Below are positions 7,646 to 64,000 of a stretch of DNA of 64,000 nucleotides, piece after piece; the stretch's first letter is position 1; the number at the start of each line of letters is the position of its first letter. This stretch comes from a virus. The stretch is from positions 5,347-69,346 of the IMG/VR virus record IMGVR_UViG_3300010430_000027; one strand, 5' to 3'. The notes beneath the pieces are model-generated. The model was not told where the DNA came from, ran no database searches, and saw only the letters and a list, made by a program, of their open reading frames with translations. Position numbers and translations under genes: made by a program.

Positions 7646-9589
7646 ATGGAATACTTAGAATTACCTAGAATAGAAACTCCCTGGAGTTCAATAGGTTATT
7701 TAACATATAAGCGTACATACAGTCGTAAATTCGAGAATGAAGAAGAGGAGTTGTTAGCGCCTGAAGCGCCGACTGAAGAATTTGAAGATACCGTTCTAAG
7801 GGTCATAAATGCTTGTGATGAGCAATTTAATTGTAACTTTACGCGAGATGAAGAATATAGATTAGCTGGGTATTTCTTAGCGTTGAAAACATCTGTTGCA
7901 GGTAGATTCTGGTGGCAAGCCGGTACTGCAACGGTGGATAGATTAGGACTGGCTTCACTACAGAACTGTGCATTCGTCACAGTAGATTCACCTGTGAGAC
8001 CTTTTACTTGGTGTATGGATATGTTGGCACTGGGCTCCGGTGTTGGATATAACATACAAAATGAGCATATAGACAAGTTACCGAAGGTGAGACCTTGGTT
8101 CAAAGCACCGATACGCTTGGATGATGGTAGTGCGGATTTTATTGTACCAGACTCCAGAGAAGGCTGGGTCAAGCTGCTGGGTAAGACACTTAAAGCAGCG
8201 TTCTTGTCAGACCGACCAGAGCAAGGTACGTTCACGTATTCAACACAGATCATTCGAGGAAAGGGATCACCCATTAAGGGCTTTGGTGGCGTGGCTTCTG
8301 GCCCGGAAGATCTTGTGTGGGGCATAAATCAGATATCTTTGATACTGGAAGATAGAGGTGGCAAGAAGATTAAGCCAATACATGCGCTTGACATAATGAA
8401 CATTATTGGATATATAATTGTTGCTGGTAACGTTAGACGTTCAGCGCAGATAGCTATAGGAGATTGTGATGATGTCGAATTCTTATTGGCAAAAAGATGG
8501 GATATGGGTGGCATCCCCAAGTGGCGCTCAATGTCAAATAACAGTGTCGTCTGCAACGATCTCGCTGACTTACACCCATACTTCTGGGATGGGTATGACG
8601 GAAGAGGTGAGCCATATGGACTCATCAACCTTGAACTTTCACGTAGCTGTGGCAGATTGGGAGAAACTTGGTATGACGATCCAAATGTTGAAGGATATAA
8701 TCCATGCGCCGAGCAGAGTTTGGAACCTTACGAAACCTGTTGTTTAGCTGAAATATTCTTACCAAACATTGAATCTTTGGAAGAACTCATAGATGCAACT
8801 GAGCTGCTATATAGGATCAATAAACATGCTATGACACTCAATTCTCATTTAAAAGAGACTCAGGAAGTGGTTCATAACAACATGCGTATGGGAATAGGTG
8901 TCACAGGTTATTTACAGGCCAGTGACGAACAAAAGAATTGGTTGGATTATACGTACAGGTATCTCAGGAAGTTCGATAAGAAGTATTCTGCGTTACATGA
9001 TCTACCTGAATCTATAAAACTTACGACAGTGAAACCCAGTGGGACGCTATCATTACTACCAGGTGTAACTCCGGGATGCCATCCAGGCTATTCCCAGTAT
9101 ATGTATCGCAGGATAACCATAGCATCAGAGCATTCTTTAACACAGGTGTGTAGAGAGAAAGGTTATCCTGTTGAATTTAAAAAGAATTTAGACGGCACTG
9201 AAGATTATGGATCATGCGTTGTGACATTTCCTTACAGATACCCTGAGGGTACTGTGTTGGCGAAAGACATGACGGCATTGAAACAACTTGATACAGTGCG
9301 CGAATTGCAAACCAGGTGGTCGGATAACAGTGTAAGCTGCACCATATATTATAGAAAGGAGGAGATTCCAGAAATCAAACAATACTTGAGATTTAGATAT
9401 GCCACTTGTCATAAGAGTCTTTCATTCTTATTGCACAGTGAGCACGGCTTTGAACAAGCTCCTTATGAAGAGGTAACAAAGGAGAAATATGAAGAATTGG
9501 TGGCACAAGTTGAACCGATAACGGATATCGTGTCGGCTGAATTTGAGGCCATTGATGAATGCGCCGGAGGAATGTGTCCGGTGAAATGA
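7646..9589 (+). CDS. nrdJ: Class II (adenosylcobalamin-dependent) ribonucleotide reductase
   Basis: Motifs KRTYSR, NCAF, PDSREGW, AGNVRRSA, NPCAEQ, TTVKPSGT and C-terminal CAGGMCP. The start at ATG 7646 follows an AGGAG RBS. Confidence 0.93.
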   Translation: MEYLELPRIETPWSSIGYLTYKRTYSRKFENEEEELLAPEAPTEEFEDTVLRVINACDEQFNCNFTRDEEYRLAGYFLALKTSVAGRFWWQAGTATVDRLGLASLQNCAFVTVDSPVRPFTWCMDMLALGSGVGYNIQNEHIDKLPKVRPWFKAPIRLDDGSADFIVPDSREGWVKLLGKTLKAAFLSDRPEQGTFTYSTQIIRGKGSPIKGFGGVASGPEDLVWGINQISLILEDRGGKKIKPIHALDIMNIIGYIIVAGNVRRSAQIAIGDCDDVEFLLAKRWDMGGIPKWRSMSNNSVVCNDLADLHPYFWDGYDGRGEPYGLINLELSRSCGRLGETWYDDPNVEGYNPCAEQSLEPYETCCLAEIFLPNIESLEELIDATELLYRINKHAMTLNSHLKETQEVVHNNMRMGIGVTGYLQASDEQKNWLDYTYRYLRKFDKKYSALHDLPESIKLTTVKPSGTLSLLPGVTPGCHPGYSQYMYRRITIASEHSLTQVCREKGYPVEFKKNLDGTEDYGSCVVTFPYRYPEGTVLAKDMTALKQLDTVRELQTRWSDNSVSCTIYYRKEEIPEIKQYLRFRYATCHKSLSFLLHSEHGFEQAPYEEVTKEKYEELVAQVEPITDIVSAEFEAIDECAGGMCPVK

Positions 9590-9597
9590 GCACGTGC

Positions 9598-9665
9598 GCG
9601 CCCGATCCTGAAAGCTGATGGTTCCCTTGGGGGATAGGTTTAGTAGGGATGCGGGCGCATTTTAC
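9598..9665 (+). other. GC-rich stem-loop between nrdJ and the pentamer array (terminator or array leader)
   Basis: GCGCCCG (9598-9604) pairs with CGGGCGC (9652-9658), with inner ATCCT/AGGGAT; followed by ATTTT. Confidence 0.45.
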
Positions 9666-9693
9666 TTGTTGGCATACGAGTCTCCAATTTAAT

Positions 9694-9986
9694 GACATGG
9701 CAGGCATGGCGCGATAAGGCACGGCAAGGCAAGGCTCAGTGAGGATGGCATGGTGAGGCAGGCTTGGACTGGCGGGTAGGGGCCAGGCGGGGCTCGTCGG
9801 GGCAAGGCAGGGCGCGGCAGGCAGGGTATGGTAAGCTGTGGCGGATTATGGCAAGTTGTGGCACGGCAGGCGAGGCGCGTCCAGGCCTATCGCGGAACGT
9901 TGGGCGAGGACAGGCATGGTGAGGCAGGCTTGGACAGGCATGGCAAGGCCCGACTGATCAAGGCACGGCAGGACATTTCAAGACAA
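9694..9986 (+). repeat. GGY-NN pentamer array 1 (candidate guide-RNA array)
   Basis: Parses as about 55-60 units, mostly GGC/GGT plus two variable bases (GGCAT GGCGC GATAA GGCAC GGCAA GGCAA GGCTC ...). A 4-nt GGCA punctuation occurs at 9699, 9757, 9816, 9865 and 9923. Confidence 0.9.
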
Positions 9987-10058
9987 GATACAACAACTTC
10001 ATATGTCATCAGAGTCGGGGCATATGTAGTTTTCTAATTACGACTCAGGAGAAGTACA

Positions 10059-10658
10059 ATGGCAACTATTACAATGAAACCTATTAATGCACGGGTAATT
10101 CATTTTCACATCATTGGGACCACTTCAATGATTCATCACAATTGGTCTCAGAAGTCAATAGCGCAAATGCGTGACAAGCACGCAGGCAAAAAGACAGTTT
10201 CTCGTGAGATCAGAAACCCAAAAGAAGAGTTTCAAAACGCATGTTATCTCACGGAAAACAATGAATACGGATTTCCTCTGATGGCTTTTAAAACTGCGTT
10301 GATAACCGCAGCTCATAGGGATATCGGTATTGAGAAGACCTTAGTCAGAAAGGCTATTTTTGTGAAATCTGATGATTCTGGCCTAATCACAAAGATGAAA
10401 TGCAACAAACCCATTATGAGAGAAGATACTGTTAGGGTAGGTCAGGGTAAAACTGATTTGAGGTATCGCCCTGAATACAAGAAATGGTCTGCGGAAATTT
10501 TCATGGAAATCGACGGGGACCTTCTCACCGCTCAAGATGTTATTAACTTGACAAATCGTGCGGGTTTCGGTGTAGGTATCGGCGAATGGCGTCCAGAAAA
10601 AGGAGGCGAAATGGGTCGTTTCAAAGTTGATGAAACAAAGAAAGTGGAAATACTCTAA
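10059..10658 (+). CDS. Stand-alone RAMP/Cas7-like RNA-binding protein
   Basis: RAMP-like first strand IHFHIIGTTSMIHH, YGFPLMAFKTAL (cf. RAMP P.IP..s.Kg.l) and C-terminal Gly-rich loop AGFGVGIGEWRPEKGGEMGRF. AGGAG RBS. Confidence 0.75.
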   Translation: MATITMKPINARVIHFHIIGTTSMIHHNWSQKSIAQMRDKHAGKKTVSREIRNPKEEFQNACYLTENNEYGFPLMAFKTALITAAHRDIGIEKTLVRKAIFVKSDDSGLITKMKCNKPIMREDTVRVGQGKTDLRYRPEYKKWSAEIFMEIDGDLLTAQDVINLTNRAGFGVGIGEWRPEKGGEMGRFKVDETKKVEIL

Positions 10659-11137
10659 TGAAAGCATATTGGAAAAAAGGGTTTCATGCTAAGGTGAAAC
10701 CTGAAATAGCCGCTGAGGAATTCGAAAGAATTCGTCAACTCTATGGCGGTGATTTGACCGCCCCTATTATACATAAGGAGGTCATAAAGAAAAGGAATCC
10801 TTTACATGGAACTTTGGAATGGGATAATGAAGTGGCTGGTTATGAGCACCGTTTAGATCAAATCAGAAACATGGTTAGATCCATTGTTGTGATTTATAAC
10901 AATGACGGTAGGGAATTGAAATCAAGACTGTTTGAAGTGGTACAAGCGGATACATCTGAAGATGAACGTAAATATAATGTTTATAATACATTAGAAGATA
11001 TCCTGGCTGATCCACGAAAAAGGGCAGAATTCCTTTCAAGAGCCAAAAGAGAAGCTGCAACATATCGCAAAAGATATTCAAGTCTAACTGAATTGTCAAA
11101 AGTTTTTGATGAAATTGACAATCTTTTAATTGAATAG
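10658..11137 (+). CDS. Conserved-looking partner protein of the RAMP-like gene, function unknown
   Basis: TAATG coupling to the RAMP-like gene; motif NPLHGTLEWDNEVAGYEHRLDQIRNMVRSI; lies inside the repeat-flanked cassette. Confidence 0.8.
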   Translation: MKAYWKKGFHAKVKPEIAAEEFERIRQLYGGDLTAPIIHKEVIKKRNPLHGTLEWDNEVAGYEHRLDQIRNMVRSIVVIYNNDGRELKSRLFEVVQADTSEDERKYNVYNTLEDILADPRKRAEFLSRAKREAATYRKRYSSLTELSKVFDEIDNLLIE

Positions 11138-11148
11138 CGTCTTGATGT

Positions 11149-11288
11149 GGCGACAAGGACGTCGTCTACAAGGCTTGGCGAGCCAGGCATGGTATGGTAC
11201 GTCCAGCCCGAGCTAGGCGCGGCAAGGCAGGCATGGCAGGCAAGGCAAGACGTGTAGGGGCCCGACGTGAAAGGGCAAGGCAAGGCAT
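11149..11288 (+). repeat. GGY-NN pentamer array 2 (candidate guide-RNA array)
   Basis: GGCTT GGCGA GCCA GGCAT GGTAT GGTAC GTCCA GCCCG AGCTA GGCGC GGCAA GGCA GGCAT GGCA GGCAA GGCAA GACGT GTAGG GGCCC GACGT GAAAG GGCAA GGCAA GGCAT. Confidence 0.85.
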
Positions 11289-11295
11289 ACTAACA

Positions 11296-11388
11296 GGACG
11301 CGAGCTGAATATTGGCTTAAGTCAGCCCGGACTGTAAATCCGGAGTCGCCGCGAGCGGGTGATGGTTCGATTCCATCCGCGTCCACCA
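11296..11388 (+). tRNA. tRNA-Tyr (GTA)
   Basis: Acceptor stem GGACGCG/CGCGTCC plus A-CCA; anticodon arm CCGGA-CTGTAAA-TCCGG; long variable arm; T arm GATGG-TTCGATT-CCATC. Confidence 0.93.
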
Positions 11389-11488
11389 TCTAATAATAAG
11401 GCAAGTGGGTTCTGATAGCCCTTCCATTGGTACCTAGCCCAGCGGGTCATTGCCGAATATGCTGGGCAACCAACTTGAGGAAACAAAA

Positions 11489-11854
11489 ATGAGTGAAGAA
11501 GCTAAGTTTTTTACAGTATCAGGCATGGTCGTAGTTTTAGTAGTATTTGTGTTAATGGCGGGGATACCCCTGTGGAACGTTTGGAGGCAAGGCTTGTCAG
11601 GTGAAGCTCTGCTAGCCAAAGCCACACAGACTAGAAAGGTAATGATAGAAACAGCAAGAGCCGAAAAAGAATCGGCCCAATTGAGAGCGGACGCCATAGG
11701 TATTATGGGAGCAGCAGCCAAAGAGTTTCCTGAGTATCGACAGCAAGAATTCATCCAGGCGTTCGGCGAAGCACTTCGAGAAGGCACAATATCACAAATT
11801 ATCTATGTGCCCACCGAAGGAAACATTCCTATATTGGAAGCAGGAAAGAGATGA
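11489..11854 (+). CDS. Membrane-anchored coiled-coil protein (SPFH/band-7-like phage family)
   Basis: N-terminal TM helix, Ala/Glu-rich coil and C-terminal QIIYVPTEGNIPILEAG; GAGG RBS before ATG 11489. Confidence 0.7.
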   Translation: MSEEAKFFTVSGMVVVLVVFVLMAGIPLWNVWRQGLSGEALLAKATQTRKVMIETARAEKESAQLRADAIGIMGAAAKEFPEYRQQEFIQAFGEALREGTISQIIYVPTEGNIPILEAGKR

Positions 11855-11862
11855 GGTAATAC

Positions 11863-12132
11863 ATGAGTAGAAAAAATACTGAAGTAATCACACAATTGAT
11901 TCAGAGTGCAGCGGATCGAATGAGAGGCACAAGATTGACACGCAAAGAGGCAGATTTGATAATTCTTAAAGTCAGAGAGCTTGCGTTTGTATTCGAATGT
12001 ACTACGAGACATCAAAATAAAAGGAGCAATAATGGACAGTTACACGATATACAGCTGCCTAGAAATCATAGCAGGGGCGAACGGCAAGAAGGTAAAAGTG
12101 GCATTCTTGGAAGAGTTTTTAGAAGATCCTGA
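11863..12132 (+). CDS. Hypothetical protein
   Basis: GAGG RBS; its 3' part overlaps the ligase start, so the extent is uncertain. Confidence 0.4.
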   Translation: MSRKNTEVITQLIQSAADRMRGTRLTRKEADLIILKVRELAFVFECTTRHQNKRSNNGQLHDIQLPRNHSRGERQEGKSGILGRVFRRS

Positions 12133-56297: not shown

Positions 56298-59200
56298 ATG
56301 TCAGGTGTAAGTATAGATTTTGAAGCTAATGCGACATCTGCCAGAAAAGAACTTGCCTTAATCAATAGGCAACTGGCGGAGTTGATACGCAACTCTGTCA
56401 AAACCAATCAATCTCTTGGGGCTATTAGTGGCAATAAGCTGAGAGCAGTAAATAAGGCAGTAGGTGATACCACCAAGCAAGTAGGTAAATACAAGACTGC
56501 CTCTCTTGATACAAATAAGAAAATAGTGGCATCAAACAAAAAAGTTGCCAGTAGCTTTTTCAGTATAAAGAATGCTGTAATTGGCCTTGCTGCTGCTTTC
56601 GCAACCGTTACTGGCGTGAATGCTATAAACCGTTCTGCAGACGCGCTCGTCAATCTGGACAATAGATTACGTCTGGTAATAGACAGCACAGACGAACTGA
56701 TTATAAGGCAGAATTCTTTATACCGTGTTGCCAGAAGAGCTCGTGCCGAATTCAGAACCACTGTGGAATTGTATTCAGATTTTGCGTTCGCTTTAAAGAA
56801 CACAAGTAAAAGCGCTGACCAGATAGAACGTTTGACAGAGACCTTGCAGAAGATGGCCGTACTGTCTGGAGGTACCGCACAGACAATAAGAGCCGCTTTT
56901 GTGCAGCTCAAACAGGGTATCGCCTCAGGTACACTCAGAGGTGAAGAATTGAATTCTGTTCTTGAGCAGCTACCTTTCCTGGGTAACGCCTTGAAGGAAT
57001 CTCTGAAGCTGGACGCGGGAGCATTACGCAAGTTCGCTGAAGAAGGCAAGCTCACGACCAATCTTGTGGTGAAGGTTCTGGAAGACTACCGAAAGCGCAC
57101 TGATGATAAATTTAATAAGACATCCATAACGGCACAACAAGCTGTCGGACAGCTGACCACATCCATATCCAGATTCTTTGGTACACTCAGTTTGGACTTT
57201 GGATTTGCTGAAGGATTCGCCACACGCATAATTGCTATGACAGATGCAGTGGATGGGTTTGCTAAGAATCTTCTATTGTCTAGCGTGATAGTGAAGCTTG
57301 CTGCAAGGAATTTCGCAACAGACTTTCTCGAAGGTAATTTCTTCAATTTGGTAAAAGAAGCCGTGCTTAATGGAGATGTACTGTTGAGCAGATCTTTTAA
57401 GCTATATTCATTTTATCAGGATATGCATGAGAAGATTACCGGTCTATTGGCTATCTTTATTACTCAAAAGAAGAAGTTAGAAGAGGCTATAACAGGTCCC
57501 ACCCTTAGAGTCAGAGCTGAGACAGCCAGAGAAGAGTTCACCTTGGATGAAGGGAAGATACCATCATTTGGACAGTTGCTGGAAAAGAATCCTTTTTCCG
57601 AAGTGAAAGACAGTTCCAAGGGCCTGCTTCTTGAATTTGCGATACTGCTAAAGAATATCGGCGTTTTGATATTTAGCACGTTGTCGGGTATTGCAGGATT
57701 GTTTCCCAAACTATTGGGACCACCGATAACCGTAGTTACTAACTTGTTTGTTGAGTTAAATATATTAGTCACTCGATTCTCTGCCAATGTATTTAAAGCT
57801 TCATTTCCGATAAGAGCCTTTGTGGAGTCCATGAATGACACGTTATCGGTATTCAGGAGAGGTAGAAACGTAGGTAGGGCTTTCACAGAGGTCTTTAGAT
57901 CTACCAGTATATCTGATCTAAATGACAATCTTGAAGATCTGAACAGAGAGTTCATAAGAGGTCCAACCAGAAATTGGCCCGTTGTATGGGAACGTGTTAC
58001 GAATTCCATACGTACAGCTCTGACGCCTTTACAAGACATGCTAATATCTCTGGGCCTGATCGATAGCAAGCTTCTGAGAATACGCAACAGACGTTTGGAA
58101 CGAGCCAAAGAAGTTATAATCTCAACGGCGGAATCCATAACCAGGGCATTCACTGAAATTCTGGAGCCTGTATTGCAAGTACTATTGGCCAGGCTTGTAG
58201 GCTTTGTAACTGTTTGGGCTGAATCATACAGACGTGCAATAACGGATACATTCAGTGATGCCGGTGGAAGATCTTTGGCTTCAGCCCTTGTCAGACAAGT
58301 TAAGGCAATCGTCAAAGTAGTCAGAGACTTAGCATCTGAAGCATTTGAAGGTGTGTTTGATGTACAGCTTTTTGATGCTAACAACTTTAAAGAGATAGCT
58401 TCAACCATATTAACTGTATTTAGAGAAGTATTCTTTAGACTTTTCAGTTTCATATCTGGTTTCTTTTCGGAGTTGTCTACTCTGGTGTGGGAATCTGTGA
58501 GAGATTCTTTTGGTAACGGTATAGATGCCTTCCTGGCGTTTGCTGGAGATGCATTAAAAACTATCTCATCAACAATTTCATCGCCGCTGCAAACTGTTGC
58601 AAATGCTTTGTCTGATATAGACTTCGATTTCAGCTTTAACATAGATATTCCGGAATTCAATATAGGGGACACGTTAACGGATACGTTCGAACGTGTATAT
58701 GAAATAACAAGAGATAGATTGAGTGACACTTTGGATATCATTTCAGAGTTTGCCTCAAGTGCTGTGGGCTATTTTGCAGATATATTTGATAAGATCGTGG
58801 GGAGGTCTTTTTGGCCAGATACAATAGACGGTATAAACGAATATACCAGAAATATATTTGAAAGTGAGAGTATATTGGAAGGTTTTTCAAGTAGAATCTC
58901 AGGAATATTTCAGGGTATCCAAAAGCGATTGTCCTCTGTGGGTCTTGATTTTTCTGACACGTTTTTGGACGCCTTTAAGTCTTTGGAAAATATAGATTTT
59001 GCAGCAGTTGTGGACAGTATTCTGTCGTCAATCATAGGAGAAGTTGCATCTGCTGTGCTGTTCATATTTGGTGGGTTCAAGTTAAAGCTCATTGCATTGG
59101 TATCAACTTTAGGTTCAATAAGTAATGTCGTTGATGGCGTATTTGAATCTTCTGGAGAAGTGATTGGAAGCGTCTTGGCAAGAATTGGAACGGACTTTGG

Positions 59201-62200
59201 TAAGACTCTAGTAGATGGCATGATTGCTGTAGTAAATGGCGCTGTGAGGGCAATACCTTCATTTATTAAGAGTCTTTTTGAAGGCATCTTCGGTCCATTG
59301 GGTGGCTTTTTGGTATCTCTCGCTAATGATTTGGCTGTTACTTTGGCCGCTGTTCTTACGTTATTTGCAGTATTTACAAAGAAAGGCATGGCCACCGCCA
59401 GGGCAGTTATACATACTGCAACTCTCGGTCTGTTTGAAGGCGTAGCCATCAAGAGTGCTGCTACGAAAGCGGGGCTTACGGCAGGTGGTCTATTTATGTT
59501 GGGTTTGTTCGATTCTGTCGGATTCTTCTCATCTGCCGTTATAGCTGCACCTTTTCTATTAGAGGCCATCTTCGGTAAAGGAGGGGTGGCTCGGTTAGTT
59601 GATAGCGCAAAGATAAGCTTAATTACAGTCTTTAATAGTCTTATTGGTTTTATGTCATTACAGGCACGAAAGTTTTCATTTTTTAGACAACTGTTCGGCC
59701 AAATAGATGATATCTCAAAAGTAGCAAGCCCTATTAAAGCCGCATTAAGCAGCTTACTATTTGATATAGGCACCATTTTCAAAAACATAGGCGCAAATAA
59801 AGGTCTTTTTGCTGCAGGTAAAATAGGTATTGCGGATTTCTTTTTCAAGTCTTTCTTAATAGACACAGATAAAGCCGGTAACATTAAACGCTTTATGCAG
59901 ATATATGTAACTGATGTATTTGGTCAGCTGAAGAGGTTGATCTCTTCTGCACTTTCCAGCATTTTGGGTACTGATGCATTCTTGTCTCTCAGAAACTTAT
60001 TTGATGGTATTTTTCAAAGCGTCTCTGATGCCATTTCTCTTGTTATACCTAAGATACGTCGTTCCTTTAGAAATCTAACTAGGTTATTTGTAAACATCAC
60101 AGCTGCCCTTACTAACTTTGCTGCCAAGGTTCTATCTATTTCCCTTGATCTTTTTCTTTCTTTCACTCATTTGGGTAGGGCATTCTTATTTATAGGCTTT
60201 GCATTATTCTCTGGAACGGCAAGTGCAAGTAGCGGCTTAGCAGATTTCGGTGCAGAAGTCGGAACCTTGGCTTTGACTGTGGCAGGTTTGGCTGCTACGT
60301 TGTATGCAGCTGTCAAGGCATTCAAAGCGTTTCAGATAGGTGCTGCTACAGCCGCCACTCCTGTGCCTGTGGCGCAAGCTTTCGCAGATGCTCTCACCGC
60401 TAGGCAGACGTTCGTAAGGCGCGCTGTGGCTTCAGGGGTGGGCGTCAATCAAGCAAACGTTGCAGGCGAGGCTCTTTTCAAGAAGAAGACAGCCGAAGCA
60501 GAGGCAACTCTGAGACGTGTAAGAAGGGCAGCCGGTTTCGAAGCGGTGTTCGGTAACATAAGTAGACTAGCGAGCGTGGCTATTTTGAAGGTCAAGGAAC
60601 TAGGGACAGCGCTATTAGGTGTGTTTACTGTAGCCAGAGTGGGGGCTGTTGCCACTGCAGGTCTAACTGCCCTATCAACTATATTCCCCACACTTATTGC
60701 AGGGGCCGTCACCTTGGCTTTTCAAATGAAAGCAGTAAGTGCAGCATTTCGATCTACTGAGGCCGTATCAGCTGCAGTGAAATTCAGAGGATTGCGTTTT
60801 GCATTGGCTGGATTGATAGACGGTTTCGGTGCCTTTGCCAAAGGTCTCTTAGTTGCGCCCATAGAAGCTACTAAAGCAGCTATAAAAGGTTTAATAACCT
60901 TGGTTAGCGTTTTGAGAAACAACCTTCTGCTCTTGAAAGCAGTAGATATTACAATCGGCGGACTGAGCGCTGTTGGTGGTCTAGGCAAGTTGGCTGTCGG
61001 TGGAGTGTTGGGAAGTATCAAATCAGTATACAAAAAGGCCTTCAGTACTATTTCCACTGACCCTGATTTTGTGGGTCCTGCTATTGGCTTGGGTAGGGTA
61101 CTTGTTAGAAGTATTGCCAAAGGTCTTGCAAAAACACTTCCAGGTGCTGTTATAACTGCGGGTGTAGGTTTATTAAGTGTTATGTTCTTTGGTGAAGGCG
61201 AGGGCTTCATAAATCAATTCAATTCAGTCATCGATAAGCTACGATCTTTTATCGGTTTGGGACCTATAACTTTTCAAGGAAGACTGGACTCAATAAATGA
61301 GAACCTTAAAAGACAGACAATAGGCGATACTACTTTAGATTTCTCTTTCTTACTGGAAAGAATAGATCTTGGGGAGCTGTCTCCTAAAGAATTTGAAAGG
61401 ATTGAAGAGTTCTCAAAGCAACAAGCAGACAGTCTCAAAAAGATTCAAAAGGATATTTTCGAGCAAGGTTTCACTACAGATTCTCAGAAAGACGAATTAG
61501 AGAAGATTGAAGAACATACAAGAAAGGTCCTGGCTAGACAAACACAAAGACCTGGATCAGAACTTCCCACATTTGCGGACATAGCCAATCGTGAACTGTT
61601 TCCCGATGATTTAAGGCTGGCATTGTCCCGCGGACTACAGCCGCTGTCAAATATACCCGAAGTCGGACCCGTAAACGCCAGAGATCGTGACTTTGGATTC
61701 ACGGCTGATACGGTAGATTTTGTGGGAGACGTGTTCTCAGACAATCCGGAAGCAGGCTTTTTCGATGTGTCCATAAATGCTTTGAATGATTCGTTCGGAG
61801 ATCTTAATGATGCAATCTCAGAAGGTTATGAAGGTCTTGATAATATCACTACGCAAGGTCTTCAGATACTTGCAGATACATATGTAAAAGCTGCCAAGGG
61901 TCTTGGTTTTGTTTTTAGCGAGTTATTTGTTCCTGATAAACCACCGGAGTTGACTTTCGACGAACAATTTTTGAAAAACGTGACAGACAACTCGGCAAAA
62001 TTTATAGGAGAGAACATAGAATTAGTAAGTGCAGAGAGCAAACAGAGCATTATCGATACAGGTAATGCATTGAAAGAGTTGAATGACCAACAAAACGAGC
62101 TTATTAAAGGCCGATTAGAGATCGAACAATTACTTAGATCTGAAGCCACTTCGCATAAAGTCCTGGGACAGCAAAAAGACATTCAGTATTCCAGAGAGCT

Positions 62201-64000
62201 TCAGATATTGGAAGCTAAAAGAGAGCAATTGGAAGTTGATTTACAGCAAGCAGGATCGAGAGCCAGTAGAGAAATTGTTCTTGCAAAGGTTAATCAAGAT
62301 GTGGTGACAGAACTCACAGAGTTTCAAAAGAGTGTTAAGGGTGTTCTTAAAGAAGATATTGGGGTTGCAGCTAGTAAGTTCTATGGAAGTTTAATAGATG
62401 TAGAGCTCCTTGAAAAGCTCGTGAAAGAAGGTGGATTGATAGCAGCAAGATTGCCACAATCTTTTGAGGAAGCTCTCAAGAAAAACATTGATCTGAAGGC
62501 TATCGAGGACACTGGTAAGTCTCTAATCAAGTTGGCCGAGACTTTCTCATTTCTCGAAAGTGCCATAACGGCAGTAGGGAAGACTTCTGGGTTGGATGAT
62601 GTTGATAACAAGCTCAGAAGGATATTGGGTGACGCTAATACACCGTTGAGTAGAAAGAGCTTCTTATTAGAGACCGGTAAGAAGATAGAAAGGTTGGAGG
62701 AAGAGCTTAAGAGACTTACAACGGCCGGTCTGGGAACGGGCATTGAAGCCGTAAATCTCAGAGGTAGAATAGATGTACAAAGAAAACTCCTAGTAAGTTT
62801 GATCAATACAGTAGATTCCACGGTATTTGAGATAAATGCCAAGTTGAAAAAGATAGGTGAAGATCCGATTTCGCTTGAGTTTGTGGCAACGACCTCCGAT
62901 ACCAGTCGTAGTAATATCGATCAGGCTATCGACAATTTAAATAGTGCAGTTACAGCCAGGTCTGCGCTACAAGACAAACCCAACGTCTCATCCGAAGCTC
63001 AAAATAAGGCAATTCAGGATGTGATTGATAAGACTAAAATTCTGTCTCAAGTGTTGGCCACAGTTAAAGGGGTCAACATAGATGCTCTTGCCGGTTCCAC
63101 TGAATCTTTAAACAGACGCTTGGATACTGCAGCAGAAAACTTGGGTGAAGAGATTCCTGATAATCTTCGTGATAGTGTTGCTCTTTCAGAAGAATGGCTA
63201 CGATTGACATTGGAGATTGCTAAGCTAGGAGCTGATATAGAGTCTGGTCAAATTGTGGGAGACGATGACGTTGCCAGAGCCCATGACATCAGTCAAAATC
63301 TGAGAGAGAGTAAAGAGATACTTTCAGAAAAGCTTACAATAGAAGATTTCGCTTCAGTCCTTTCTGACAGCGGTATTGAAATTGATGTAAGTTCGTTATT
63401 GAGCTTCGAAGGAGATGTATTTAAAGGTCTCAAAGTAAAGTTTCAAGAGATAACAAGATTGCGAGACGCCTTTCAAAAATCTTCAGACAAGTTTAAAGGC
63501 GAAAGCTTTGCATCTAGCGATCTACGTATTTCTGACGAACTTAGGAAGAGTACTCAGGAACAATTGAAATCTATAGTTGACAGAGAGAAAGAGCTTCTAA
63601 TACAAGTTAGACAAACGATAAAAAGTGCTGTATTCGATACTGGTGAGAAAGCAATTGAAGGTATAACTTCTGCCGGTGTTTCCAATGACGCCGTGCTTCG
63701 TTTGGACGATACTGAATTTAATAAGATTCTGGATTTGCAAACAAAGCTTATTTTGAACCAGCTCAAGCTCAGTGATTTGAGAGTTAAAGGTAATAAAGAT
63801 ACTGTGAAGGCGCGTGAGATTTTAGCAGACACAGTAGATTTACAAGACCAGCTTAATGATGCTGCCACAAGAGGTAATCTTGACTTCGCTAAAGGTTTGC
63901 AGTTCGTAAATGAACAACTGGGATCGTCTCTCACAGAGAGGCAATTTGCGGATCTTCCGAAGATGCTCAGAGAAGGGCTCGTGGCAGCTGCTGCAGATTA
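56298..64000 (+). CDS. Tape measure protein (very long, 3' end outside window)
   Basis: GAGG RBS and ATG 56298 (MSGVSIDFEANATSARKEL); tape-measure motif QLKQGIASGTLRGEELNSVLEQLP. The same frame is open at the window end and the track lists no closed + ORFs here. Confidence 0.88.
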   Translation, partial: MSGVSIDFEANATSARKELALINRQLAELIRNSVKTNQSLGAISGNKLRAVNKAVGDTTKQVGKYKTASLDTNKKIVASNKKVASSFFSIKNAVIGLAAAFATVTGVNAINRSADALVNLDNRLRLVIDSTDELIIRQNSLYRVARRARAEFRTTVELYSDFAFALKNTSKSADQIERLTETLQKMAVLSGGTAQTIRAAFVQLKQGIASGTLRGEELNSVLEQLPFLGNALKESLKLDAGALRKFAEEGKLTTNLVVKVLEDYRKRTDDKFNKTSITAQQAVGQLTTSISRFFGTLSLDFGFAEGFATRIIAMTDAVDGFAKNLLLSSVIVKLAARNFATDFLEGNFFNLVKEAVLNGDVLLSRSFKLYSFYQDMHEKITGLLAIFITQKKKLEEAITGPTLRVRAETAREEFTLDEGKIPSFGQLLEKNPFSEVKDSSKGLLLEFAILLKNIGVLIFSTLSGIAGLFPKLLGPPITVVTNLFVELNILVTRFSANVFKASFPIRAFVESMNDTLSVFRRGRNVGRAFTEVFRSTSISDLNDNLEDLNREFIRGPTRNWPVVWERVTNSIRTALTPLQDMLISLGLIDSKLLRIRNRRLERAKEVIISTAESITRAFTEILEPVLQVLLARLVGFVTVWAESYRRAITDTFSDAGGRSLASALVRQVKAIVKVVRDLASEAFEGVFDVQLFDANNFKEIASTILTVFREVFFRLFSFISGFFSELSTLVWESVRDSFGNGIDAFLAFAGDALKTISSTISSPLQTVANALSDIDFDFSFNIDIPEFNIGDTLTDTFERVYEITRDRLSDTLDIISEFASSAVGYFADIFDKIVGRSFWPDTIDGINEYTRNIFESESILEGFSSRISGIFQGIQKRLSSVGLDFSDTFLDAFKSLENIDFAAVVDSILSSIIGEVASAVLFIFGGFKLKLIALVSTLGSISNVVDGVFESSGEVIGSVLARIGTDFGKTLVDGMIAVVNGAVRAIPSFIKSLFEGIFGPLGGFLVSLANDLAVTLAAVLTLFAVFTKKGMATARAVIHTATLGLFEGVAIKSAATKAGLTAGGLFMLGLFDSVGFFSSAVIAAPFLLEAIFGKGGVARLVDSAKISLITVFNSLIGFMSLQARKFSFFRQLFGQIDDISKVASPIKAALSSLLFDIGTIFKNIGANKGLFAAGKIGIADFFFKSFLIDTDKAGNIKRFMQIYVTDVFGQLKRLISSALSSILGTDAFLSLRNLFDGIFQSVSDAISLVIPKIRRSFRNLTRLFVNITAALTNFAAKVLSISLDLFLSFTHLGRAFLFIGFALFSGTASASSGLADFGAEVGTLALTVAGLAATLYAAVKAFKAFQIGAATAATPVPVAQAFADALTARQTFVRRAVASGVGVNQANVAGEALFKKKTAEAEATLRRVRRAAGFEAVFGNISRLASVAILKVKELGTALLGVFTVARVGAVATAGLTALSTIFPTLIAGAVTLAFQMKAVSAAFRSTEAVSAAVKFRGLRFALAGLIDGFGAFAKGLLVAPIEATKAAIKGLITLVSVLRNNLLLLKAVDITIGGLSAVGGLGKLAVGGVLGSIKSVYKKAFSTISTDPDFVGPAIGLGRVLVRSIAKGLAKTLPGAVITAGVGLLSVMFFGEGEGFINQFNSVIDKLRSFIGLGPITFQGRLDSINENLKRQTIGDTTLDFSFLLERIDLGELSPKEFERIEEFSKQQADSLKKIQKDIFEQGFTTDSQKDELEKIEEHTRKVLARQTQRPGSELPTFADIANRELFPDDLRLALSRGLQPLSNIPEVGPVNARDRDFGFTADTVDFVGDVFSDNPEAGFFDVSINALNDSFGDLNDAISEGYEGLDNITTQGLQILADTYVKAAKGLGFVFSELFVPDKPPELTFDEQFLKNVTDNSAKFIGENIELVSAESKQSIIDTGNALKELNDQQNELIKGRLEIEQLLRSEATSHKVLGQQKDIQYSRELQILEAKREQLEVDLQQAGSRASREIVLAKVNQDVVTELTEFQKSVKGVLKEDIGVAASKFYGSLIDVELLEKLVKEGGLIAARLPQSFEEALKKNIDLKAIEDTGKSLIKLAETFSFLESAITAVGKTSGLDDVDNKLRRILGDANTPLSRKSFLLETGKKIERLEEELKRLTTAGLGTGIEAVNLRGRIDVQRKLLVSLINTVDSTVFEINAKLKKIGEDPISLEFVATTSDTSRSNIDQAIDNLNSAVTARSALQDKPNVSSEAQNKAIQDVIDKTKILSQVLATVKGVNIDALAGSTESLNRRLDTAAENLGEEIPDNLRDSVALSEEWLRLTLEIAKLGADIESGQIVGDDDVARAHDISQNLRESKEILSEKLTIEDFASVLSDSGIEIDVSSLLSFEGDVFKGLKVKFQEITRLRDAFQKSSDKFKGESFASSDLRISDELRKSTQEQLKSIVDREKELLIQVRQTIKSAVFDTGEKAIEGITSAGVSNDAVLRLDDTEFNKILDLQTKLILNQLKLSDLRVKGNKDTVKAREILADTVDLQDQLNDAATRGNLDFAKGLQFVNEQLGSSLTERQFADLPKMLREGLVAAAAD

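What the first reader, a model, noticed from the sequence alone, without database searches (positions are those of the whole stretch)
9694..9986. Array 1 is punctuated into five ~50-60 nt units, each with a distinct dinucleotide code
Seen: the pentamer phase slips at a 4-nt GGCA at 9699, 9757, 9816, 9865 and 9923 (spacings 58, 59, 49, 58). NN strings: unit 1 AT GC AA AC AA AA TC GA - AT GA; unit 2 TT CT GG GG CA GG TC GG AA AG GC; unit 3 AG AT AA GT GG AT AA GT AC; unit 4 GA GC CA CT GC AC - GA CA AT GA; unit 5 TT CA AT AA CC TG AA AC AG. Degenerate triplets (GAT, AGT, GTC, ATT, GTT, ATC) fall mostly mid-unit, while unit ends are near-perfect GGY. Inference: GGCAGGC junctions are processing sites or unit boundaries yielding individual guides of 9-11 pentamers. 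A simple slippage satellite would homogenise the NN positions rather than keep them diverse.
Basis: partly seen in the sequence, partly recalled or inferred. Interest (0 to 1): 0.85.

Follow-up and report, generated by a model that had tools for sequence, protein, structure and literature searches.

The report
VIPR guide-RNA array in a phage

Summary
Window 9699-9971 parses exactly into five runs of GGYNN pentamers, each preceded by a one-base-short unit GGCA (9699, 9757, 9816, 9865, 9923). The 5-nt periodicity is far above shuffles, and positions 4-5 vary much more than positions 1-3.

The gene 73 nt downstream (10059-10658) is a Vipr protein. It matches the solved SUSP1 Vipr (phmmer E 1.5e-6; profile 98.3%), keeps its GGY-contact residues and has a Cas7-like RAMP fold. 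A second conserved gene (10658-11137) and a second array (11172-11288) complete the locus. This is a VIPR system (Viral Interference Programmable Repeat; three bioRxiv preprints, 2026). In VIPR, Vipr protomers polymerise on GGY/NN repeats and the NN dinucleotides read double-stranded DNA, skipping every third base.

The tail-less layout with GGCA slips fits the "staggered vrRNA arrays" named in one figure legend of the first preprint, which that paper did not confirm by RNA sequencing. In 120 array-bearing IMG/VR loci, GGCA is by far the commonest 4-nt unit. 106 of 142 GGCA-to-GGCA intervals hold 7-13 pentamers.

No natural target rose above chance and no RNA data exist. Verdict: a new member of a known kind; the role of the junction is inferred, not shown.

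The parts
9699..9986 (+). vrRNA array 1: five runs of GGYNN pentamers, each preceded by a 4-nt GGCA unit. Clean parse to 9971; three degenerate pentamers follow to 9986.
9699..9702 (+). 4-nt unit GGCA (phase slip) at the head of unit 1. The same unit lies at 9757-9760, 9816-9819, 9865-9868 and 9923-9926.
   Evidence: family statistics
9703..9756 (+). unit 1: 10 pentamers plus an internal 4-nt GGAT at 9743. NN = AT GC AA AC AA AA TC GA / AT GA.
9761..9815 (+). unit 2: 11 pentamers. NN = TT CT GG GG CA GG TC GG AA AG GC.
9820..9864 (+). unit 3: 9 pentamers. NN = AG AT AA GT GG AT AA GT AC.
9869..9922 (+). unit 4: 10 pentamers plus one internal 4-nt unit near 9894.
9927..9971 (+). unit 5: 9 pentamers. 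NN = TT CA AT AA CC TG AA AC AG.
10059..10658 (+). vipr gene, 199 aa: a RAMP (Cas7-like) protein that should polymerise on the GGY/NN repeats.
10658..11137 (+). conserved second gene, 159 aa (phrog_15946), in the position of a vipr-accessory (vap) gene. No match to SUSP1 vap1. Weak winged-helix-like fold resemblance only.
11172..11288 (+). vrRNA array 2: GGYNN pentamers with GGCA units at 11226 and 11235. About two guides.
11296..11388 (+). tRNA-Tyr (GTA) starting 8 nt after the last pentamer of array 2. Whether it belongs to the system is open.

Best explanation
Window 9590-11400 is a VIPR locus: array 1, then vipr, then a vap-like gene, then array 2. It is carried as an accessory cassette by an uncultured 69-kb phage from marine sediment.

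The arrays are transcribed on the + strand. Vipr protomers bind one per pentamer, holding each GGY triplet and exposing each NN. The filament then reads double-stranded DNA as NNxNNx, skipping one base in three, and silences a competing mobile element.

Array 1 has the tail-less 'staggered' layout. The one-base-short unit GGCA breaks the 5-nt register and marks where one guide ends and the next begins, giving about five guides of 9-11 repeats. Array 2 gives about two more.

Shown here: the anatomy, the homology and fold of Vipr, and the family-wide statistics of the GGCA unit. Taken from the preprints: the binding and targeting mechanism, which was worked out on SUSP1 and P. fulva type II systems. 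Inferred: transcription, the role of GGCA as a boundary, and the kind of target.
For: 1. Vipr membership. phmmer against PDB chains gives one hit, 36pp_D 'SUSP1 Vipr protein', E 1.5e-6. A profile of 29 homologues against SUSP1 Vipr gives hhalign probability 98.3%, E 1.2e-14, over 164 columns.

2. RNA-contact residues. The residues that the structure preprint names as GGY contacts (H17, R138, D177, W178, R179) align with H27, R137, E176, W177 and R178 of the window protein. R137 and R178 are invariant in the 29-sequence alignment.

3. Fold. The AF2 model has pLDDT 93.6. The best Foldseek PDB matches are Csm3/Cas7 subunits of type III and type VII CRISPR complexes, probability 1.00, TM about 0.5.

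4. Array properties: see the observation check.

5. Linkage. 61 of the 120 encode a homologue of the window's Vipr at E <= 1e-3. All 100 arrays in those loci lie on the vipr strand. 20 of the 61 have arrays on both sides of vipr, as in the window.

6. Same module in cultured phages. Cheoctovirus mycobacteriophages have it: DRBy19 carries an array with GGCAGGC slips followed by a 199-aa protein 32% identical to the window's (E 2e-33). SUSP1 itself has the same gene order with GGT-type repeats.

7. The GGCA unit. Among non-5-nt units it occurs 193 times, against GGCG 36, CGCA 10 and GGCT 7. 106 of 142 GGCA-to-GGCA intervals hold 7-13 pentamers. This fits the published 9-16 repeats per vrRNA and the Fig. 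S18 legend on staggered arrays.

8. Accessory nature. 0 of 34 loci of phages with a 54-74% identical ribonucleotide reductase carry vipr or arrays. In L129 and L130 the ligase gene follows the reductase gene directly.
Against: - No RNA evidence: no RNA run holds the stretch.
- No natural target. In 1.39 Mb of held DNA, including the phage's own genome, the best matches equal the shuffled-guide null.
- Exact 1-nt-skip patterns gave nothing for unit 2 in viral, metagenome or genome collections.
- The array-2 guide gave nothing in viral contigs and 3 metagenome loci that make 2 independent sites.
- Unit 3 gave 8 viral loci that make 2 independent sites. Unit 5 gave 1 locus. A shuffled unit-3 control gave 0. 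These numbers are of the order expected by chance, and no other guide converges on any of those contigs.
- The array is more degenerate than its family. 34 of 51 repeats are perfect GGY, below the 70% cut I used for the family statistics. Units 1 and 4 hold an extra internal 4-nt unit that would split them into short pieces.
- There is no conserved 3' tail or significant fold after the array: z = -1.09 for 9960-10058. The type II cap is therefore absent, and how the filament ends is unknown.
- The second gene has no similarity to SUSP1 vap1.
- No sigma-70-like promoter was found just upstream of array 1 on the + strand.
Confidence: 0.78

Rival explanations
1. It is a VIPR array, but the GGCA units are not guide boundaries. 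The array would be one long Vipr-coated RNA, or it would be cut elsewhere, and the 4-nt units would be tolerated indels or serve another role, such as nucleating the filament.
For: The first preprint did not confirm staggered arrays by sRNA-seq; only the ribozyme-interspersed and single-vrRNA layouts were confirmed. The pentamers flanking GGCA show no conserved handle: NN entropy there is 1.6-2.0 bits. Other 4-nt units occur inside units 1 and 4. GGCA units only 9 nt apart occur in array 2 and in other loci.
Against: The fourth base of the short unit is strongly non-random: GGCA 193 against GGCG 36 and GGCT 7, whereas A makes up 32% of position 4 in ordinary pentamers. The intervals cluster at 7-13 pentamers, within or close to the published vrRNA length. 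The Fig. S18 legend describes vrRNAs that abut with a 1-nt overlap.
Confidence: 0.17
2. The arrays are decoys rather than weapons. The RNAs would soak up or redirect the Vipr of a competing phage, as described for satellite-borne and orphan solo vrRNAs.
For: The October 2026 preprint reports solo vrRNAs that redirect a phage's Vipr to decoy sites, and orphan vrRNAs aimed at rival vipr genes (abstract and Discussion). No target was found for the window's guides.
Against: The window carries its own intact vipr with conserved RNA-contact residues, directly between the arrays. None of the guides matches any of the 61 vipr-bearing loci above the shuffled null.
Confidence: 0.03
3. It is a DNA-level or structure-level G-rich element unrelated to guide RNAs: an R-loop-prone origin, a two-tetrad G-quadruplex tract, or an RNA bound by a TRAP-like ring protein. 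I held this reading before the protein was identified.
For: The array is 43% G and 22% C on the + strand in a 43% GC genome. It lies in the replication module between the reductase and ligase genes.
Against: It does not explain the strict link to a RAMP protein on the same strand in 61 of 120 loci. It does not explain the high-entropy NN positions. Related phages with the same replication genes lack the element.
Confidence: 0.01
4. It is a neutral slippage microsatellite.
For: Tandem Repeats Finder reports only short, low-scoring period-5 and period-10 rows here.
Against: A slippage repeat would be homogeneous, whereas positions 4-5 are near maximal entropy and positions 1-3 are conserved. The element is conserved with its protein partner from mycobacteriophages to this marine phage.
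Confidence: 0.01

Closest known systems
VIPR systems with 'staggered vrRNA arrays' (preprint 10.64898/2026.04.26.720920, Results and Fig. S18 legend; passages read, figure not visible)
   Same: A Vipr RAMP gene plus a second gene, flanked by GGY/NN pentamer arrays on the same strand. Guides abut without tails, and a one-base offset occurs between successive guides.
   Different: The window's locus comes from an uncultured marine-sediment phage that is not among the records I could see. I cannot say which of the seven published types it belongs to, because the type tables and figures are supplements or images that I could not open. The preprint did not verify staggered arrays by RNA sequencing.
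Type II VIPR of Escherichia phage SUSP1 (KT454805.2; PDB 36pp)
   Same: Gene order array - vipr - second gene - array, next to a DNA ligase gene. Vipr is homologous, with the thumb arginine and the D/E-W-R G-loop motif conserved. The 5-nt GGY/NN repeats are the same kind.
   Different: SUSP1 repeats are mostly GGT. Each SUSP1 vrRNA has its own leader and a roughly 40-nt 3' tail with a pseudoknot. The window has GGC repeats, no tails and GGCA slips. Sequence identity is 29% over the C-terminal 76 residues only. The second genes are unrelated in sequence.
Cheoctovirus (Che8-like) mycobacteriophages such as DRBy19, and Gordonia phages UmaThurman and ODay
   Same: DRBy19 has a GGCNN array with GGCAGGC slips directly upstream of a 199-aa Vipr homologue (32% identity, E 2e-33), followed by a homologue of the second gene. 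The Gordonia proteins are 39-40% identical.
   Different: These are temperate actinobacteriophages, and the locus sits in the early lytic region between the antirepressor and excise genes. In the GenBank records the proteins are 'hypothetical', and a 54-aa ORF (gene 51) is annotated over the array.
Class 1 CRISPR-Cas backbone (Cas7/Csm3 filament on crRNA)
   Same: RAMP fold with an RRM core, a glycine-rich loop and a thumb. One protomer binds per fixed-length RNA segment, with periodic interruption of guide-target pairing.
   Different: There is no CRISPR repeat-spacer array and there are no other cas genes. The period is 5 nt with three bases sequestered, not 6 nt with one base flipped. According to the preprints the target is double-stranded DNA read with a one-in-three skip.

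Membership tests
VIPR system | A Vipr protein, homologous to the described Vipr family, encoded next to the repeats | tested here: met
   phmmer to PDB 36pp_D 'SUSP1 Vipr protein' E 1.5e-6. hhalign of profile A1 against SUSP1 Vipr gives 98.3%, E 1.2e-14, over 164 columns.
VIPR system | RAMP architecture of Vipr: RRM core, glycine-rich loop, thumb | tested here: met
   AF2 model with pLDDT 93.6. Foldseek PDB top hits are Csm3/Cas7 subunits, probability 1.00, TM 0.45-0.58. The G-loop reads GFGVGIGEWRP, with G169, G173 and R178 invariant in 29 homologues.
VIPR system | Residues that hold the GGY triplet in the SUSP1 structure (H17, R138, D177, W178, R179) | tested here: met
   They align with H27, R137, E176, W177 and R178: four identical and one conservative. 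The W position varies (W/G/F/H) and the H position is not invariant across the 29 homologues.
VIPR system | vrRNA repeats: tandem 5-nt units with conserved GGY and hypervariable NN, 9-16 per vrRNA | tested here: met
   Entropy is 0.66/1.12/1.07 bits at positions 1-3 and 1.79/1.95 bits at positions 4-5. The units hold 9-11 repeats. Periodicity is 20 pairs against 2.0 in shuffles.
VIPR system | Arrays in the intergenic regions flanking vipr, in a minimal two-gene locus, mostly on viral genomes | tested here: met
   Array 1 ends 73-88 nt before vipr. Array 2 starts 35 nt after the second gene. All parts are on the + strand. The record is a 69,346-base virus record.
VIPR system | A vipr-accessory (vap) gene of one of the six described families | tested here: inconclusive
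   A conserved second gene follows vipr in 19 of the 25 loci where tblastn finds it. It has no similarity to SUSP1 vap1, no Pfam or NCBIfam family and no significant fold match; the best is E 0.39, among winged-helix proteins. I could not see vap2-6.
VIPR system | vrRNAs are expressed and co-purify with Vipr | not testable with these tools
   No RNA run holds the stretch. The DNA contigs of four runs only confirm the sequence.
VIPR system | Guides match natural targets by the 1-nt-skip rule (at least 80% NN match) and do not match their own genome | tested here: inconclusive
   There is no self-match above shuffles. Exact-pattern scans gave 0 hits or chance-level hits. Mismatch-tolerant scans of the large collections were not possible.
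Type II VIPR (SUSP1 / P. fulva clade) | Each vrRNA ends in a conserved 3' tail; in the SUSP1 clade the tail forms a pseudoknot | tested here: not met
   The units abut through GGCA alone. The sequence after the array folds no better than shuffles, z = -1.09. SUSP1's own arrays show the tails.
CRISPR-Cas | Repeat-spacer array of about 60-79 nt period plus cas genes | tested here: not met
   No such repeats were found, and there was no Rfam hit. The only RAMP-like gene is vipr (for its neighbours).

The most novel reading that the evidence does not exclude
In tail-less staggered VIPR arrays, the one-base-short GGCR unit would be the whole punctuation. By breaking the 5-nt register on which Vipr protomers polymerise, it would set guide length through filament phase, with the exposed joint trimmed by host RNases. 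No dedicated processing enzyme, ribozyme or 3' pseudoknot cap would be needed. In this phage the last guide of array 2 would get its 3' end from RNase P cleavage of the abutting tRNA-Tyr. This would be a new, protein-templated way of measuring out guide RNAs.
Probability: 0.3. Interest if true: 0.6.

Novelty: new member of a known kind. Interest (0 to 1): 0.35.

Why it matters
That speaks for the scan, but the biology is already in print.

What this locus adds is modest.
- It is a clean natural example of the staggered, tail-less array layout, which the discovery paper describes only in a supplementary legend and did not verify by RNA sequencing.
- The family-wide numbers collected here make the boundary idea directly testable: GGCA is the dominant 4-nt unit, 7-13 pentamers lie between most of them, and the flanks carry no conserved handle.
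- The same layout sits unannotated in cultured Mycobacterium and Gordonia phages. Those phages are easy to grow and would be convenient models.

Tried and rejected
- Rfam gave nothing, at gathering scores on the whole window and at E <= 10 on 9550-11450; the only relevant row was the tRNA.
- Before the protein was identified I considered a TRAP-like ring protein, a Rho-related element, an R-loop origin, a G-quadruplex tract and Chi-like decoys. I dropped them once the link to a RAMP gene appeared.
- No RNA holder is listed for the stretch. Laying the contigs of four DNA runs showed no variation in the arrays, so unit turnover could not be read from them.
- Relatives found through the ribonucleotide reductase lack the cassette altogether, so they give no array to compare.
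- Target searches rose no higher than chance. See the Against line for the counts.
- The unit-3 site shared by 7 related viral contigs lies in a glycosyltransferase-like gene on the opposite strand, with the skipped base at codon position 1, not the wobble position.
- The array-2 guide matches a DUF349 gene in wobble register in one metagenome element, seen twice. This is a single site, made of lysine- and asparagine-type codons, among about two hits expected by chance.
- tRNA genes next to arrays are not a family feature. 1 of 40 vipr-bearing loci has any tRNA, and that one is far from the array.
- RNA folds of the array pieces are not better than shuffles, z from -1.74 to +0.15.

Full report
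**Observation.** GGCAGGC occurs at 9699, 9757, 9816, 9865 and 9923. Units 1 and 4 each contain one more 4-nt unit.

GGY triplets spaced 5 nt apart occur 20 times in 9694-9986, against 2.0 +/- 1.4 (maximum 8) in 1000 dinucleotide-preserving shuffles. Entropy is 0.66, 1.12 and 1.07 bits at pentamer positions 1-3, and 1.79 and 1.95 bits at positions 4-5. A second, shorter array lies at 11172-11288 and is followed after 7 nt by a tRNA-Tyr gene. Nothing like these arrays occurs elsewhere in the window or on the minus strand.

Contigs of two other public DNA runs from marine sediment carry array 1 without a single difference. It is also not seen family-wide.

**What it is.** No ORF spans the arrays and Rfam has no match. 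The first lead came from blastn of the region against phage records. It hit Che8-like mycobacteriophages at a stretch that is the same kind of GGCNN array, GGCAGGC slips included. In both phages the next gene encodes a 199-aa protein, and the two proteins are 32% identical (E 2e-33).

61 of the 120 encode a homologue of this protein, and 25 encode a homologue of the next gene. All 100 arrays in the 61 loci lie on the strand of the protein gene.

The protein matches one solved structure by sequence, chain 36pp_D, named 'SUSP1 Vipr protein' (E 1.5e-6). That name led to three bioRxiv preprints of 2026 on VIPR (Viral Interference Programmable Repeat) systems. I read their abstracts and the following parts:
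- 10.64898/2026.04.26.720920: Results, Discussion and several Methods sections.
- 10.64898/2026.04.26.720927: two Results sections and passages.
- 10.64898/2026.10.15.759431: one Methods section, the Discussion and passages.

A fourth preprint, 10.64898/2026.10.21.760802 (passages only), recovers 99 VIPR-like clusters from 5-nt entropy periodicity.

**How it works.** This mechanism comes from the preprints and was worked out on type II systems. Vipr is a minimal RAMP protein. One protomer binds per pentamer and the protomers form a helical filament on the vrRNA. Each GGY triplet is flipped out and held by two neighbouring protomers, while the NN bases are presented for pairing. The target is double-stranded DNA read as NNx, with one base skipped in three, usually the codon wobble position. 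Binding silences transcription. Natural guides mostly aim at competing satellites and prophages.

**Membership.** The window's protein aligns with SUSP1 Vipr over nearly its whole length when a profile of 29 homologues is used (98.3%, E 1.2e-14). The named GGY-contact residues H17, R138, D177, W178 and R179 correspond to H27, R137, E176, W177 and R178. R137, R178 and the G-loop glycines are invariant in the 29 homologues. The AF2 model is confident (pLDDT 93.6). Its best structural matches are Csm3/Cas7 subunits (probability 1.00, TM about 0.5).

SUSP1 has the same locus order: array, vipr, second gene, arrays, beside a ligase gene. I therefore file the locus as a VIPR system.

It is not of the SUSP1 (type II) architecture. 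The repeats are GGC rather than GGT. There are no leaders or 3' tails between guides, and the stretch after the array folds no better than shuffles. The second gene has no similarity to SUSP1 vap1. That gene has no Pfam or NCBIfam family. Its confident model (pLDDT 91.4) has no significant PDB match, and winged-helix proteins fill the weak list (best E 0.39). I cannot assign one of the seven published types, because the type tables and figures are images or supplements that I could not open.

**The GGCA junctions.** The first preprint mentions 'staggered arrays with overlapping vrRNAs'. The legend of its Fig. S18 says that individual vrRNAs derive from positions overlapping by 1 nt, so that the end of one marks the start of the next. 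The text adds that only the ribozyme-interspersed and single-vrRNA layouts were confirmed by sRNA-seq. A search for 'vrRNA' together with 'staggered' returned only that work.

A 4-nt unit between 5-nt units is the same thing as two pentamer registers overlapping by one base. I therefore read the window's array as such a staggered array, but this is my inference because the figure is not visible to me.

I parsed 177 arrays from the 120 loci, 5,468 pentamers in all. The window itself was left out, because only 34 of its 51 repeats are perfect GGY, below my 70% cut.
- Entropies are 0.46, 0.50, 0.81, 1.92 and 2.00 bits.
- Units that are not 5 nt long are GGCA 193 times, GGCG 36, CGCA 10 and GGCT 7, then rarer ones.
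- 106 of 142 intervals between successive GGCA units hold 7-13 pentamers.
- The pentamers next to GGCA keep high NN entropy (1.6-2.0 bits), so there is no conserved handle beyond the short unit itself.

They do not show cleavage.

**Genomic setting.** The record is a 69,346-base virus record rated complete. The cassette lies between the ribonucleotide reductase and DNA ligase genes of a replication module that also holds the primase-helicase, polymerase and exonuclease genes. None of 34 loci from phages with a 54-74% identical reductase has vipr or arrays. In two of them the ligase gene follows the reductase gene directly. The VIPR locus, with the tRNA and a small gene (11450-11854), is therefore an insertion in a variable spot.

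**Targets.** I applied the published 1-nt-skip rule.
- In 1.39 Mb of held DNA (own genome, 120 array loci, 34 relatives), no guide beat 40 shuffled versions of itself, and there is no self-target.
- The large collections can only be scanned for exact matches.
- Unit 2 (22 informative bases): 0 hits in viral, metagenome and genome collections.
- The second guide of array 2 (20 bases): 0 hits in viral contigs. 3 metagenome loci, which are 2 independent sites.
- Unit 3 (18 bases): 8 viral loci. 7 are one related family sharing an identical 26-mer, and 1 is unrelated.
- Unit 5 (18 bases): 1 locus.
- A shuffled unit-3 control: 0 hits.
- No second guide converges on any of these contigs.

The unit-3 family site is not in wobble register. 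The array-2 site, in a DUF349 gene, is in wobble register, but it is one lysine-rich site among about two hits expected by chance. I count the target question as open.

**Verdict.** This locus is a new member of that known kind, in the less studied staggered layout. The open points are the expression of the arrays, the role of the GGCA unit, the identity of the second gene and the targets.

Noticed in passing
window 11296-11388: A 93-nt tRNA-Tyr (GTA) gene starts 8 nt after the last pentamer of array 2, on the same strand. tRNA genes are not a general neighbour of such arrays: 1 of 40 vipr-bearing loci has any tRNA, and that one is far from the array. The tRNA could still supply a processing site here.
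   Followed up: partly
window 9747-9773 and 9913-9939: The junction of units 1 and 2 and the junction of units 4 and 5 share a 27-nt direct repeat, 96% identical. The last two repeats of units 1 and 4 and the first two repeats of units 2 and 5 are therefore nearly the same. This hints at growth of the array by duplication or recombination.
   Followed up: no
L001 (NC_051650.1) 1440-1700; also Florinda, Brocalys, Saal, Philus, James, Gorge, and Gordonia phages UmaThurman and ODay: Cultured Mycobacterium and Gordonia phages carry the same array-plus-Vipr module, but the proteins are annotated 'hypothetical'. In DRBy19 a 54-aa ORF (gene 51) is annotated over the array itself and is probably not a gene.
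   Followed up: partly
window 9590-11980 compared with L129, L130: In related phages the ligase gene directly follows the ribonucleotide reductase gene. In this phage about 2.4 kb (VIPR locus, tRNA-Tyr and a 134-aa 'protease'-family gene) is inserted between them.
   Followed up: partly
window 11450-11854: This 134-aa ORF (phrog_11227, 'protease') has a stretch 78% identical in DNA to a gene of Shewanella phage vB_SbaS_Y11. It is the only nucleotide-level link to a cultured phage outside the array, and a weak hint at a gammaproteobacterial host.
   Followed up: no
window 56298-63998: A single ORF of more than 2,567 aa runs off the end of the window. All large ORFs of the window lie on the + strand. 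The product was not examined.
   Followed up: no
L171 4495-4523 (and the 99.4% identical L173): The second guide of array 2 matches 20 of 20 informative bases in a DUF349 gene of a metagenome contig, with the skipped bases at codon wobble positions. It is a single site within chance expectation, but it is the one candidate target worth a second look.
   Followed up: partly
GU169904.1 (Staphylococcus phage SA1) 91700-91912: A record labelled as a Staphylococcus phage gives the same Vipr match (28.9% identity, query 116-191) as the Felixounavirus phages of E. coli and Salmonella. This suggests that part of the record is of that kind.
   Followed up: no
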